Assembly: GCF_006345805.1 (NCBI RefSeq)
Contig: NC_043010.1
Coordinates: 19,468,001 to 19,532,000 of the forward strand
Origin: Octopus sinensis
Taxonomy: Eukaryota
Direction: 5' to 3'
DNA length: 64,000 bases
Within the stretch, counting starts at the first letter, position 1. The number at the start of each line of letters is the position of its first letter. The position numbers were made by a program, and so were the translations under genes. Below, one piece after another: positions 41,749 to 49,333 of this stretch. The notes beneath the pieces were generated by a model. The model was not told the DNA's origin, ran no database searches, and was given only the letters and a program-made list of their open reading frames with translations.

Positions 41749-41819
41749 CTCCCCAGCGGGGAATCGAACCCCAGTCTCCCGTGTGACAGACGGGATACTT
41801 ACCACTATACTACCAAGGA
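41749..41819 (-). tRNA. tRNA-Asp(GTC) gene or pseudogene
   Basis: tccttggtagtatagtggtaagtat-cccgt-ctGTCac-acggg-agac-tggggttcgattccccg-ctggggag; 71 nt, position 26 missing, extra G-U pairs; T5 tract about 12 nt downstream. Confidence 0.8.
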
Positions 41820-44532: not shown

Positions 44533-45180
44533 ATGACTAGTCCAGCCCCAGAAAACATTCCTGTTGAGCCAAAATCTCCAGCCAGGTCCAGAACTGAGAG
44601 TCTGAACACTTCTTCAAGTGTTGGCAACCTCAGATTCATCAATGATGAACTACGATCGCATGTCACCAAGTTGCGTAACCAACTAGAAGCTGAGAAGGGC
44701 AACCTGAAGCAAGCCCATCGGCAGAAAGTTCTTGACATTAAGAATGTACGGGAACTGGAACAGAAAAAAACATTGGCAACAATCATAGAACTGAAGAAGA
44801 AATTCCACGAAGAGAAAATCAAAGAGATAGAGAGTTTACGTGAGACAATTAGTCAGAAACTAGAATTAGAGAAGAACAAATGCCTGAAAGTGAAAGACAC
44901 AGAAATGACAAAACTACGACAGGAACTGGACGTGAAGGAGAAGATGCTGAACAAGCTGTTGTCTCAGACCAACCAGAAGACGAATAATGATCAAATTAAT
45001 GTAAAACTCTTGGATGAACTTAGCGAATTAAGGAGTACGAAACGACAGCTGGAAGAGTCCCTGTCGCAGGCAACTGTCATTGAGAAGCACCACAGTGAAA
45101 ATCTGAAGAAACTGTGCAGCAGTTATGAATCAGAACTGGTGAGGGTTCGAAGAGAAGCCCACATGGAGATACGCCATATG
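44533..45180 (+). CDS. JAKMIP: Probable first coding exon of a JAKMIP-like (Janus kinase and microtubule-interacting) coiled-coil protein
   Basis: 216 open codons with heptad composition; NDELRS, LEAEK, RELEQKK, ELKKKFHEEKIKEIESLRE resemble the JAKMIP N-terminus as recalled; start context aaaATGa; phase-0 donor ATG|gtaagt at 45181. Confidence 0.85.
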
Positions 45181-45346
45181 GTAAGTAAAAATTTCACATG
45201 ATTTATTTCATATCTTTCAATGTTTTTGTCTAAGTTCAAATCATTGGAGCACTACAAAATGTTTTCCATACTGATCATCTCTGGATCTCATCAGTTGACC
45301 ATATATATATATATATATATAAAGATAAATATAAATGATGATGATG

Positions 45347-45390
<44 letters not shown>

Positions 45391-45535
45391 AAAGTAATTA
45401 AGATTCAAGTCAGTTCTAATGAATTCACTTGAATGCGGTACTTAACTTAGATGCACCAGAAAACTATATGGTATTAACCATACAATAATGTGGGGTGATT
45501 ATAAATGAGAAAAAAGCAACAAGAATGGATTAGTT

Positions 45536-45626
45536 TTTTAGTACAATTGTTTCATACAAAGACAAGCTTTATTAAAAGCTGCAAATATTGCAGCAAATAC
45601 AAGTGTCCCCTACTCATCAGCTAAAA
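45536..45626 (-). ncRNA. Type I hammerhead ribozyme motif (inverted copy)
   Basis: Reverse complement of 45841-45931 with one stem II substitution. Confidence 0.7.
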
Positions 45627-45840
45627 CACATATGAGTTCTCCAAACATCCTAGTGGGTGAGGCTACACTCATGAAGTATCGGAGATAGTTCTATAAAAAG
45701 CAAATTTAGGTTGTAAGCGGACTTCCAAAGTTCTTTAATGATGATGCACAGTCTTATAACAGGTTGCTTTTTATAGAACTATCTCCGATACTTCATGAGT
45801 GTAGCCTCACCCACTAGGATGTTTGGAGAACTCATATGTG

Positions 45841-45931
45841 TTTTAGCTGATGAGTACGGGACACTTGTATTTGCTGCAATATTTGCAGCTTTTAATAAAG
45901 CTTGTCTTTGTATGAAACAATTGTACTAAAA
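45841..45931 (+). ncRNA. Type I hammerhead ribozyme motif, canonical core, branched stem II
   Basis: ttttag-CTGATGA-gtacgggaca...tgtctttgtat-GAAA-caattg-TA-ctaaaa; GUA site; palindromic ACAATTGT stem III. Confidence 0.8.
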
Positions 45932-46264
45932 AACTAATCCATTCTTGTTGCTTTTTTCTCGTTTATATTTATATATATATAGCTTTATCTGAGCTGTAAT
46001 TCTCTGGATCATGCACTTTTTGACATATTCTTACTCATTTTGTACATATTTTGTATGATGGCTGAGTTTGGTAAATGTTCAGTGAGGTGCCATTCTTTAC
46101 ATTTTCTTCAACCACACAAAATTATACAAGTTTTGTGTAATGTAGCACATGTAATTATTTATTTGTAATGTGGTTCAAAGTGGAGTGCTACTGAAACATT
46201 AAACTTACGCTGCACTGATATATTCATTTTCATCTTCATTGTTGTCTTATATATATATATATAT

Positions 46265-46357: not shown

Positions 46358-46358
46358 A

Positions 46359-46870
46359 CAGTAAATCCTCGAGTATAGTCTGCCCTTGAGTATAATACAC
46401 AGGGGATTTTTAGGGGGCTGTACTTCTGAAAAACCTAAACCTTGTGTATAATACACACCCCTTCTCTAACTTGAGTCAAGGAGGTCTATATAACGTCCTT
46501 GGTTTGTAAAAATGTATACGGTAACGTCCTTTATTATTATTGTATATATAACATAATGTAAACGTGTAGCTTTTTTGTGCATTTTGTTTGCAGAAAATAA
46601 AGAAATAACAGTAATAACGTTTAATAAATGTTGCTCACTGCAAGTTATGGATGATTCTTTTATGACTTCATTGCTTCCATGATTAGTTTAAGGTATTTTC
46701 GTGCCCGACATCACAAAATGCATCTGAATAAACATTGCCGGACAGCAAATAGAGACTCAGACATTGCTTAGAAAATATTTTTCATTTTTAACCTCGTATA
46801 TAGTACGCACTAGGTATTTTGACCTTTAAATTTTTGGGGAAAAATGCAGATTATACTCGACGATTTACGG
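46359..46870. mobile_element. pogo/Tigger-like MITE
   Basis: TA|cagtaaatcctcgagtata ... tatactcgacgatttacgg|TA. Confidence 0.8.
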
Positions 46871-46876
46871 TATATA

Positions 46877-47818
46877 TTGGGTCATCCCATAAATATTGTG
46901 TTTTTTTTTGTACTTCTTTTATTTTTCAAAATTAAGACAAAGTTCTTTTTTAATCTAAAATATTCTCTCCTTCATTTTCTACAATGCTCTTCCATCTATC
47001 TGGTAGACTTCCAAGGCCCCTCTTCCAAAATTTACTTGTCCATGATGAAAAATACTCCTCCAGTACTGTTCTGACCTTATCTACAGAATTCATATTTTTT
47101 CCATCAAAATGATTTTGAAAACTGTGGAATAAATGAAGCCTTGTGCTTCCAGTAGGAAAGATTTTTATAGAGAACCCATTTCTTATCACCAGTAACTACA
47201 CAGTCCAAAAATGGTTCATTCAGCAAAGAAGAGTATACATTCACTCTCTGTACACAATTAGACTTGGATAGTTTATGAGGAACCCATTGACCCAATTTGC
47301 TGACGACTTTTCTGACGGCACATATGGGTCAATGAATGGTTAAATGACCAAATCCCAGCTCCTCTGCCAGTTCCTCAACAATTACAATGGGATTTTGTTC
47401 CACCAGGGTTTGTAGAACATCCTCATCGAACTCTACAGATCTTCCAGGATGAGGTTCTTCTTCTAGGCTGTAGTTTCCGGCTTGAAATTTCTGGAACTAC
47501 CATTGACACTGGCTTACACTTATTGTCCAATCCCCATATACTACATTAATATTCCTCACACTTTCCATTGCGTTGTTGCCTTTATTGAACTCTTAAAGCA
47601 AAATATGCTAAATATGCTCCTTTGTCACTTCTATTATAGCTTTGGAAAAATAACAGTTAAAATCAAACTGCACTCTTCAAAACTTGCACTAAGAATAAGT
47701 ACAAGGTAAAATTACTACCTGCTTTTATAGCAAGTTGATGCAGGTAGTTTATTCTGCTCACATCTGACTTTTAGTTCATGCAATCGAAGAAAACCACATT
47801 ATTTATGGGATGACCCAA
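46877..47818 (-). mobile_element. Mariner element, internally deleted relative of 27462-28692
   Basis: Same TIRs ttgggtcatcccataaata; WVPHKLS and VVTGDKKW motifs. Confidence 0.92.
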
Positions 47819-49333
47819 TTTATATAATCTTTGTCTTCTATCTACCTTCCTATCTCTCTTACTGTACATATGTGTGTGTGTGTGTGTGGTGTGTGTGTGT
47901 GTGTGTGTGTGTGTTTATAAACTTGTTACCAATTCAAATATGCTTCAGGCATATTTGAACCCATAGGAAAACCATTCAATGTATTTTGTGATGGAGAAAA
48001 TTTCTTGCTGTAGACAAATAGATGTTAAATACAGTGAGTCACTTCAGAATGGCCCCTGACAAGACTGTGGGATTCATACATTCCAGAGGTTATCTCCTCT
48101 TTAGCCACAGAGAGCGGAAAGACAAATGCTGCAAACTGACATGAGAGACTGACTCCTCTTCTAATATTCCTGTCATCGTTCAGTGACTGGCTGCACCATT
48201 CAGTGACACACCGCAAAAAAAGACAAAAGGTGGCAGCACTTAGCAAATGATGCATTTAGATACAAACTTGTAACAAGTTCAAATACATATTCACACACAC
48301 ACACATGCGCACACACACACACACGCTCACATACACGCACATGTTAGTGATGGAGGTCTGAAGAGTACTCTGTACTGAGGGTTAGAGTATAAATATTCCT
48401 TTATCCTGTAATAGTATGTTCTCATCTCAATATTCTGGGTTCTCTATCTGTGAAGATGGTCTACTGACATCGTTCCAGTTGTGGAAAGCTTTGACTTGAA
48501 GCCAAGATAAAGAAATGATAAACATAGATATGTTTATCTAGGTTTATTTTTATACACACACACACACATGCACATGCATACACATTCATCTATATACATA
48601 AATACATGCACATACTTATACATACACACACACACACTAATATATGTATGTATTTGCATTAGCTGTGTTTGTTTGATGGTGATGGTTTTTATGGTGTTTA
48701 GACTCTTTAACCTGGTGATTCTCAACTGTTTTAAAATCCAGGCCACATCTAAAACTTGCATTTTTTTAGGGGCCCAGACCCCAAAAAGTAAAACACAAGT
48801 CGATTAAAGAAAAATTTATTATATTTATAGAGGGAAAATTGTCAAGGGCCGCCAGAAGTATACTTGAGGGACGCAGGAGAACTGCCGGTTTAGAGTGTGA
48901 GCAATGACTGAATGTTGAACGCATTCACTTTTGAATCAGAATATCCTGGATTTTAACCCTTTTTGTTTCCCATTGGGGAAGTGTCTTCTACCATAACCTC
49001 AAATCCACGTATGACCTTTGAATGAAACTGGGTTGGCAGAAGCCGTATGGAAGCTGGTCAGATGAACCATACCTATAAATTAAACAAGCCAGTTACATCA
49101 CACGGGTTCTTTCTAAGAATTACAGTAAGGGTATATGAGTCTGTGGAATACTCAGTCACTTACTAAAATGCAATGAATCATTGCATTTTATGAAATAACT
49201 AGAATACTCAATGCTGGAAGTTCTGTGGCTCCATTTAGAGTTGTTCAAGAAGTGTGTGTGTGTGTGTGTGTGTTTGAATTGAAACAGTGTCTTATAACCC
49301 TTAATGTGAATTTAGATCCCCACTGAAGGTTTC

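What the first reader, a model, noticed from the sequence alone, without database searches (positions are those of the whole stretch)
45500..45967. Back-to-back hammerheads in a 204-bp inverted repeat about 320 nt downstream of the JAKMIP-like splice donor
Seen: a canonical type I hammerhead on the gene's sense strand (45841-45931) and its mirror on the antisense strand (45536-45626). Stem II is extended and carries two extra hairpins (gctgcaatatttgcagc, agcttttaataaagct). Inference: in the pre-mRNA the upstream arm would pair with the ribozyme and silence it, forming a ~200-bp duplex. That could explain tolerance in an intron and would be a strong ADAR substrate; coleoids are known for extensive A-to-I editing. 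Editing or co-transcriptional folding might switch cleavage on.
Basis: partly seen in the sequence, partly recalled or inferred. Interest (0 to 1): 0.8.

Follow-up and report, generated by a model that had tools for sequence, protein, structure and literature searches.

The report
Head-to-head Penelope-like retrotransposon ends in intron
The two mirror-image hammerhead motifs are the ends of a common Penelope-like retrotransposon inserted back to back in an intron, an ordinary footprint that likely does nothing for the host gene; the one unusual trait is an overlong ribozyme arm holding a conserved AAUAAA that may act as the element's poly(A) signal.

Summary
The 204-bp inverted repeat and both hammerhead cores are real. 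They lie in a 58.5-kb intron of a JAKMIP-family gene that is spliced normally. They are not a host switch. The repeat belongs to a ~575-bp insertion (45387-45961) in a (TA)n tract: two 5'-truncated 3' ends of a 4.2-kb Hydra-clade Penelope-like element, joined head to head at a 2-nt overlap. The genome holds at least 2,337 intact-core copies of this hammerhead; 48 of 53 close neighbour pairs are head-to-head, a described insertion form. One arm carries a ~120-nt tail and the other none, as at 26 of 27 distinct junctions scored, fitting two reverse-transcription start sites. The duplex is predicted to beat the ribozyme fold by ~125 kcal/mol and to zip up before the ribozyme is transcribed. Modelled A-to-I editing does not free it, and RNA contigs show no A>G excess. 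What looks new: 57-60 nt lie between the core boxes, where published Hydra loops II are 3-10 nt. This arm holds AATAAA/ATTAAA 23-26 nt before the cut site in 124 of 130 copies, a poly(A)-signal layout (untested).

The parts
45387..45765 (-). Left copy: 5'-truncated 3' end of the Hydra-clade Penelope-like element, read leftwards: 62 nt of 3' UTR, the 204-nt arm, then the tail
   Evidence: 96% over 387 nt to natural full-length copy L047 (alignment runs to 45379 through TA microhomology)
45387..45499 (-). Tail: the first ~115-120 nt of the next tandem unit (5' UTR), present on this arm only
   Evidence: 55 of 129 copies end here, 68 of 129 at the pLTR end
45704..45763 (-). The 60-nt 'spacer' is element 3' UTR belonging to the longer left copy
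   Evidence: query 1-62 matches on the opposite strand next to the arm at many loci
45764..45765 (.). TT overlap shared by both copies at the head-to-head junction (microhomology)
   Evidence: gap -2
45764..45967 (+). Right copy: 204-nt 5'-truncated 3' end, stopping at the pLTR end without tail (unambiguous to 45961)
45841..45931 (+). Minimal type I hammerhead, sense to the host gene: core 45847-45853 and 45914-45917, stem II 45854-58/45909-13 with a distal extension, palindromic stem III 45917-45924, predicted cut after 45925
   Evidence: (covariation in stems I and II)
45536..45626 (-). Mirror hammerhead, antisense to the host gene, with a private change at 45610 in stem II
45873..45889 (+). 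Terminal hairpin of the extended stem II
   Evidence: pair probability 0.95-0.99 for 6 of 7 pairs; one pair with compensatory change, 91% of cells paired
45894..45899 (+). AATAAA inside the stem II extension, 26 nt before the cut site; candidate poly(A) signal
45944..45957 (+). Conserved U/GU-rich tract 19-32 nt after the cut site and just before the first insertion end; candidate downstream poly(A) element or RT-start signal
45349..45386 (.). (TA)n target, left side
   Evidence: sequence; 111 of 129 copy ends are followed by TA-rich sequence
45962..45981 (.). (TA)n target, right side (imperfect); no target-site duplication can be told
   Evidence: sequence
44533..45180 (+). Coding exon of the JAKMIP-family host gene (coiled coil); splice donor at 45181
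   Evidence: open frame; joined to the next exon in runs X4 and X10; JAKMIP_CC3 downstream on the same strand

Best explanation
This is a head-to-head pair of 5'-truncated 3' ends of a Hydra-clade Penelope-like retrotransposon, sitting in a (TA)n tract in an intron, likely made in one insertion event and likely inert for the host gene. Shown: the element's anatomy, the copy number, the two fixed 3' ends about 120 nt apart, one of each per pair, and the TT overlap. Inferred mechanism: the RT/GIY-YIG protein nicks both strands of (TA)n; each nick primes cDNA at one of two internal start sites on the element RNA (pLTR end; pLTR end plus ~120 nt); both cDNAs stop early and are joined at a short microhomology, which puts a hammerhead on each strand. 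The ribozyme serves the element, probably as a weak, dimer- or protein-dependent cutter. In the host pre-mRNA only one sense copy exists and the antisense arm is predicted to zip it into a ~200-bp duplex as it is made, so it would stay off; any editing would be passive and would more often damage the core than free it.
For: 97 matches on many contigs among 40 of 1,681 candidates scored. Natural tandem copy L047 with a 4.2-kb unit, RT and C-terminal GIY-YIG, carrying RWK, DKT, CxCX5C and CxxC..E..N..CxH, the Hydra diagnostics of PMC8557442 section 11. 2,337 intact-core hammerheads. Among the first 100 matches listed in each, neighbours within 5 kb were 48 head-to-head, 1 tail-to-tail, 4 direct. 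29 of 30 head-to-head rows (26 of 27 distinct junctions) pair one tail end with one pLTR end; the remaining one also bears a tail by inspection; chance about 6e-9 if ends were independent. Literature: opposite-strand min-HHR pairs 100-700 bp apart and low in vitro activity (PMC4209133, parts 1-2 read); head-to-head inverted pLTRs with a tail on one end (PMC3846280 and PMC8557442, passages); two internal RT start sites, both strands extended, predicted dimer, protein-assisted HHR (PMC11167929, parts 1-2 read). Duplex energetics. Spliced host mRNA present.
Against: No cleavage, editing or RNA-end data specific to this locus could be had: all runs were assembled contigs pooled over thousands of copies. 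The right junction appears in contigs of all five DNA-like runs laid (13-24 unambiguous element letters, under the tool's 31-letter bar), including haplotypes that differ in the flank, so the insertion may be fixed, which leaves room for host use. The two-site priming model rests on a Poseidon-clade element in vitro, not on this family. Clade placement is by motifs, not by a tree with reference sequences.
Confidence: 0.9

Rival explanations
1. One reading: the inverted arm is a safety catch on an intronic ribozyme, and A-to-I editing or co-transcriptional folding releases it to cut the JAKMIP-like pre-mRNA in a regulated way.
For: The region is intronic and sense; the duplex is near perfect; coleoid editing targets repeats and introns (PMC9068888 passages); the right junction seems shared among diverged haplotypes.
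Against: The same layout occurs at many unrelated loci as an insertion product. The growing transcript is paired in register at every length tested. The editing model leaves 15-70 kcal/mol in favour of the duplex even at full editing and destroys core As. The lone ribozyme fold is itself 3.9 kcal/mol above the ensemble and has a 2-bp stem III. No A>G excess in RNA-like contigs, Fisher p 0.67-1.0.
Confidence: 0.04
2. The head-to-head form is made by the insertion mechanism but is enriched inside introns by selection, because the antisense arm masks the sense ribozyme and its AAUAAA, whereas lone sense copies truncate host transcripts and are purged.
For: The duplex would bury both the core and AATAAA 45894-45899, which lies 713 nt from the donor. 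Roughly half of copies are not in close pairs (40 and 56 of 100 paired), so both classes exist to be compared.
Against: Not tested: no gene annotation was available to count lone sense, lone antisense and paired copies in introns. PLE minimal hammerheads cleave poorly (PMC4209133), so there may be little to mask. U1-dependent protection near a donor (recalled, no call) could be enough.
Confidence: 0.2
3. The repeat is an assembly artefact or a foldback DNA element (MITE) unrelated to a retroelement.
For: Arms are 99% complementary; no contig spans the whole stretch.
Against: The arms differ at two sites, one private to the left arm; the arms have different, family-typical ends; junction positions differ among loci, as 5' truncation predicts; the arm is contiguous with an RT-endonuclease ORF in L031, L032, L034, L039 and L047.
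Confidence: 0.02

Closest known systems
Hydra clade of C-terminal-endonuclease Penelope-like elements (Craig et al. 2021, PMC8557442), including Hydra-1_Obim from an octopus
   Same: RT then GIY-YIG; RWK, DKT, CxCX5C linker, CxxC and CxH around E and N; (TA)n targets; hammerhead near the 3' end with a wobble or mismatch at the first stem II pair, which several listed Hydra HHRs also show.
   Different: A different family from Hydra-1_Obim (proteins differ widely by eye; no alignment run). Unit 4.2 kb against 'generally <3 kb', owing to an Asn-rich insert and a ~1.2-kb stretch between ORF end and cut site. 57-60 nt between the core boxes against loops of 3-10 nt in all 26 Hydra rows of File S2.
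Inverted pLTR insertions of Penelope elements (Adineta vaga PMC3846280; Drosophila virilis PMC2377424; PMC8557442 Fig. 2 legend)
   Same: 5'-truncated inverted copy joined head to head; tail at one end only; microhomology joins; Asn-rich ORF inserts as in Adineta.
   Different: The tail is ~120 nt here (about 100-120 across subfamilies) against 30-40 bp described; the one-tail/one-no-tail rule is counted here at 26 of 27 junctions.
Minimal PLE hammerheads (Cervera and de la Pena 2014, PMC4209133)
   Same: Type I, palindromic short stem III, dimer-dependent design, opposite-strand pairs 100-700 bp apart already reported in Schistosoma.
   Different: Long stem II rod with a terminal hairpin and a conserved AWUAAA; long loop II is listed only for PLE-X elements of spike mosses (29-36 nt) in File S2 of PMC8557442.
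Poseidon element PAc of Anolis (Frangieh et al. 2024, PMC11167929)
   Same: Two internal RT start sites that define the tail; AT-rich targets; start sites lie 3' of the hammerhead cut.
   Different: Different clade; there the hammerhead overlaps the start codon, here the ATG is 211 nt after the cut site and both start sites are in the 5' UTR.

Membership tests
Penelope-like element (EN+) | Single ORF with RT followed by GIY-YIG endonuclease | tested here: met
   L047, L039, L034, L032; Pfam RVT_1 E 0.001-0.009 and GIY-YIG E 3e-4, all below curated cut-offs; 10 relatives at 32-39% identity, 6 with PF26215; the copies examined are broken by stops or frameshifts
Penelope-like element (EN+) | Partial tandems forming pLTRs that carry a hammerhead | tested here: met
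   L047: two pLTR copies 4,200 nt apart flanking the ORF
Penelope-like element (EN+) | 5'-truncated inverted copies and a tail at one end | tested here: met
Hydra clade | RWK in place of GxKF/Y; DKT in place of DKG | tested here: met
   (RWK and DKT found in the ORF frame; DKG not found; the one GxK[FY] match is in another frame among stops)
Hydra clade | CxCX5C linker; CxxC and CxH flanking the conserved E and N | tested here: met
Hydra clade | CCHH motif (two Cys between GIY and YIG) absent | tested here: met
   Read from the translations: one Cys only between VIY and YLG/YIG
Hydra clade | (TA)n insertion preference | tested here: met
   111 of 129 copy ends followed by TA-rich sequence
Hydra clade | Generally shorter than 3 kb (typical, not diagnostic) | tested here: not met
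   unit 4.2 kb
Hydra clade | Phylogenetic grouping with described Hydra RTs | not tested
   Reference proteins were seen only as supplement text, not as stored sequences
Nematis or Neptune clade (first guess, from recall) | CX2-5CxxC linker plus CCHH motif | tested here: not met
Type I hammerhead ribozyme | CUGANGA, GAAA and UH core with stems I-III | tested here: met
   94% of cells paired and 28 double changes over 21 distinct copies, 0 of 500 shuffles as high on these measures, 90 and 170 of 500 on the pair-count and pair-type measures
Type I hammerhead ribozyme | Match to an Rfam hammerhead model | tested here: not met
   the long stem II and tiny stem III probably fall outside the models
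Type I hammerhead ribozyme | Self-cleavage | not testable with these tools
   needs in vitro transcription
Canonical polyadenylation signal | AAUAAA/AUUAAA 10-30 nt before the cleavage site and a U/GU-rich element after it (definition recalled) | tested here: met
   124 of 130 copies, 23-26 nt before the hammerhead cut site; GU-rich tract conserved. Layout only.
Canonical polyadenylation signal | Polyadenylated RNA 3' ends at the site | not testable with these tools
   only contigs were served
JAKMIP gene (host) | JAKMIP_CC3 domain in the same gene | tested here: inconclusive
   two matches over cut-off, same strand, downstream of exon 2, the only ones in the genome; exon chain between them not traced; the exon alone gave no Pfam match and only a 0.89 atlas lead at rank 10

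The most novel reading that the evidence does not exclude
This Hydra lineage has built its poly(A) signal into the ribozyme: AWUAAA sits in the lengthened stem II at the spacing that would aim the host cleavage-polyadenylation machinery at the same bond the hammerhead cuts, with the GU-rich element just downstream. One site would then choose between a polyadenylated mRNA for translation and an uncut or ribozyme-cut template for reverse transcription from two start sites 3' of it, one used by each subunit of an RT dimer; more than 2,000 copies would scatter latent poly(A) sites through host introns, masked when inserted head to head.
Probability: 0.3. Interest if true: 0.6.

Novelty: new variant of a known kind. 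Interest (0 to 1): 0.3.

Why it matters
As posed, the finding is an ordinary retrotransposon footprint and should not be pursued as an editing-controlled host switch. What remains of value concerns the element. The role of hammerheads in Penelope-like elements is still open (PMC8557442 discussion passage; PMC11167929 found cleavage dispensable in vitro). A family with thousands of copies, covarying stems and a hexamer that changes between the two canonical poly(A) forms gives a direct test of whether ribozyme and 3'-end processing share one site. The near-strict pairing of one tailed with one tail-less arm is a genomic read-out that a two-start-site, dimeric priming model must explain.

Tried and rejected
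Rfam found no hammerhead. My first clade guess, Nematis (recalled), was dropped after reading the diagnostics. The idea that the G.U first pair of stem II marks decay was dropped: 1,953 exact copies carry the GTAT form against 593 with GTAC, A-U and U.U forms also exist, and published Hydra hammerheads show the same. A preferred 5' boundary at 45764 was rejected: truncation points vary among loci. A branched stem II with two hairpins was rejected. RNAalifold without constraints did not recover the hammerhead; it gave the terminal hairpin and a competing hairpin over stems II-III, so the fold was imposed. Editing test: A>G plus T>C against C>T plus G>A was 21:18 in DNA run X1 and 33:22, 30:26, 25:24 in X10, X8, X9; these contigs mix all family copies and drop rare variants, so this shows no absence. 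The unique intron flank 46008-46250 had no cover in those three runs, which is uninformative. No contig joining across the whole insertion (empty allele) was listed, but the (TA)n stretch 45294-45399 was skipped by the tool. So whether the long stem II occurs outside this genome is open. Lunse et al. (PMC5785218) is not held. Searches for a prior report: 'hammerhead ribozyme'+'octopus', 'Nematis'+'Penelope-like' (36), 'hammerhead'+'intron'+'inverted repeat'+'ADAR' (54), 'Penelope'+'polyadenylation signal'+'pLTR'+'hammerhead' (66), 'hammerhead ribozyme'+'retrotransposon'+'AAUAAA' (67); none listed a poly(A) signal within a PLE hammerhead. Repbase, Dfam and subscription journals could not be searched, and bioRxiv supplements were not seen.

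Full report
Observation. The inverted repeat is as described: arms 45500-45703 and 45764-45967, 60 nt apart, differing at two positions. The + strand carries a type I hammerhead at 45841-45931 with CUGAUGA at 45847-45853, GAAA at 45914-45917, a palindromic ACAAUUGU in stem III and a predicted cut after A45925; the mirror lies at 45536-45626 and has a private change that breaks one stem II pair. Rfam does not recognise it.

Host gene. Contigs of runs X4 and X10 leave the genome at 45180 and continue into a sequence found once in the genome, at C14:19571685, behind an AG and in frame. The intron is 58,504 nt and the gene is spliced across the repeat. The genome's only two JAKMIP_CC3 matches lie further downstream on the same strand, so 'JAKMIP-like' is likely right, although the exon alone gave no family match and I did not trace the exons between.

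What it is. The arm is a high-copy repeat (97 matches from 40 of 1,681 candidates scored). [quoted passage not shown] RWK, DKT, CxCX5C and CxxC..E..N..CxH, no CCHH, and (TA)n targets match the Hydra clade as defined in PMC8557442 (section 11 read). That paper lists one octopus Hydra family, whose protein differs widely from this one by eye. In the window, the left copy runs 45765 to about 45387 on the minus strand and includes the 'spacer' and a tail; the right copy runs 45764-45961/7; they overlap by TT and both ends abut (TA)n.

How common. The genome holds 2,337 intact-core hammerheads of the long type against 11 matches to a short pattern, which look like deletions or chance. Among the first 100 matches listed in each of two exact searches (593 and 1,953 in all), neighbours within 5 kb were head-to-head in 48 of 53 cases, at 56-4,611 nt; the window's pair, at 369 nt, is typical. 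Opposite-strand minimal hammerheads 100-700 bp apart were already reported (PMC4209133, parts 1-2 read), as were head-to-head inverted pLTRs with one tail (PMC3846280, PMC8557442, PMC2377424; passages).

Mechanism of the insertion. Of 129 distinct copies with enough flank, 68 end at the pLTR end, 55 about 120 nt further, 5 elsewhere and 1 continues into a tandem. Of 30 head-to-head rows, 29 pair one of each; after merging duplicated loci (L045/L049/L052; two rows of L086) this is 26 of 27 junctions, and the last also bears a tail on inspection. Independent choice would mix the ends about half the time. This fits two internal RT start sites, as shown in vitro for a Poseidon element that extends both strands and is predicted to be a dimer (PMC11167929, parts 1-2 read). 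That each nick uses one start site in a single event is my inference. Both ends lie 3' of the hammerhead cut (42 and 163 nt by alignment end), so the template is uncut, re-ligated or multimeric RNA.

Alone, the ribozyme fold lies 3.9 kcal/mol above the ensemble, with stem III almost unpopulated, as expected for dimer-dependent PLE hammerheads. In the repeat it costs 122-125 kcal/mol. The growing transcript has the right arm paired in register at all six lengths tested, starting before the ribozyme is made. Editing was modelled by sparing core and stem As: at 50% editing the gap is 97-112 kcal/mol with I read as G and 42-66 with I unpairable; at 100% it is 70 and 15; the chance that five core As escape 50% editing is 3%. 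These are rough nearest-neighbour figures without inosine parameters. RNA-like contigs show no A>G/T>C excess over a DNA run, a weak test because copies are pooled. Passive editing of the duplex remains plausible (PMC9068888 passages). The right junction appears in contigs of all five DNA-like runs laid, two of them with other flank alleles, which suggests that the insertion is shared, but the overlap is under the tool's bar.

The ribozyme is under selection in the element. Over 21 distinct copies chosen to span subfamilies, stems I and II and the terminal hairpin are 94% paired with 28 double changes; slid controls give 29-50%. Two of the five measures did not exceed the shuffles, relatedness inflates the rest, and an unconstrained consensus fold did not recover the hammerhead.

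What looks new. There are 57-60 nt between the core boxes (56 and 48 in single copies), against loops of 3-10 nt in the 26 Hydra rows of File S2 of PMC8557442. Within this arm, 124 of 130 intact-core copies carry AATAAA (110) or ATTAAA (14) ending 23-26 nt before the cut site; 6 carry neither. Among 18 representatives at 72% mean identity it is the only 6-nt window inside the stem II insert to reach the 0.93 conservation cut (0.95), and a U/GU-rich tract after the cut is equally conserved (the core and one tail motif were forced by my selection). On a tree of 61 tail-bearing copies built without the hexamer, ATTAAA needs three changes, two of them resting on single rows. By eye, 5 of the 26 short-loop Hydra rows have AATAAA or ATTAAA just 5' of stem I. 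This is the layout of a polyadenylation signal (definition recalled) aimed at the ribozyme's own cut site. Against it: the DNA is AT-rich (1.5 AWTAAA per kb in the window), the hexamer could be kept for pairing or tertiary contact, the GU-rich tract could serve RT initiation, and no RNA ends were seen. The searches listed no prior report; Repbase, Dfam and most subscription journals were out of reach.

Verdict. The locus is an ordinary head-to-head insertion of a Hydra-clade Penelope-like element. The family's long-stem hammerhead with a candidate poly(A) signal is a modest, testable variant. Interest 0.3.

Noticed in passing
window 46358-46870: Imperfect terminal inverted repeats flanked by TA (CAGTAAATC.TCGAGTATA at both ends), the look of a Tc1/mariner-type non-autonomous element (label recalled) in the same intron.
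   Followed up: no
window 46871-46908 and 47787-47824: A second 38-nt inverted pair, 89% complementary, 878 nt apart, directly after the first; probably another DNA transposon.
   Followed up: no
window 41749-41819 (-): tRNA-Asp(GTC) called by ARAGORN and Rfam; gene or tRNA-derived repeat not determined.
   Followed up: no
L047 (G000:C2:135536386-135540850, -): Near-complete tandem copy of the element with frameshifts; the ORF carries a long Asn-rich insert between RT and endonuclease, as described for Adineta Penelope elements.
   Followed up: partly
window 45387-45499 and family tails: The tail holds several conserved blocks and a TATGG..ACCATA hairpin across subfamilies, and both insertion ends are preceded by a TTGCT-like motif; candidate protein-binding or RT-start signals.
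   Followed up: partly
L100 (G000:C1:115954940 region) and L147: Copies where the inverted junction falls inside the palindromic stem III or inside the tail, giving hybrid palindromes.
   Followed up: no
L046 8846-9250: Endonuclease fragment of a different Hydra-like family next to a copy of this one.
   Followed up: no
window 45048, 45075, 46017, 46194: Runs labelled organism C carry exon and intron variants (two substitutions in X8 and X9; one substitution and a 13-nt insertion in X5 and X6), so the served runs span diverged haplotypes or species.
   Followed up: partly
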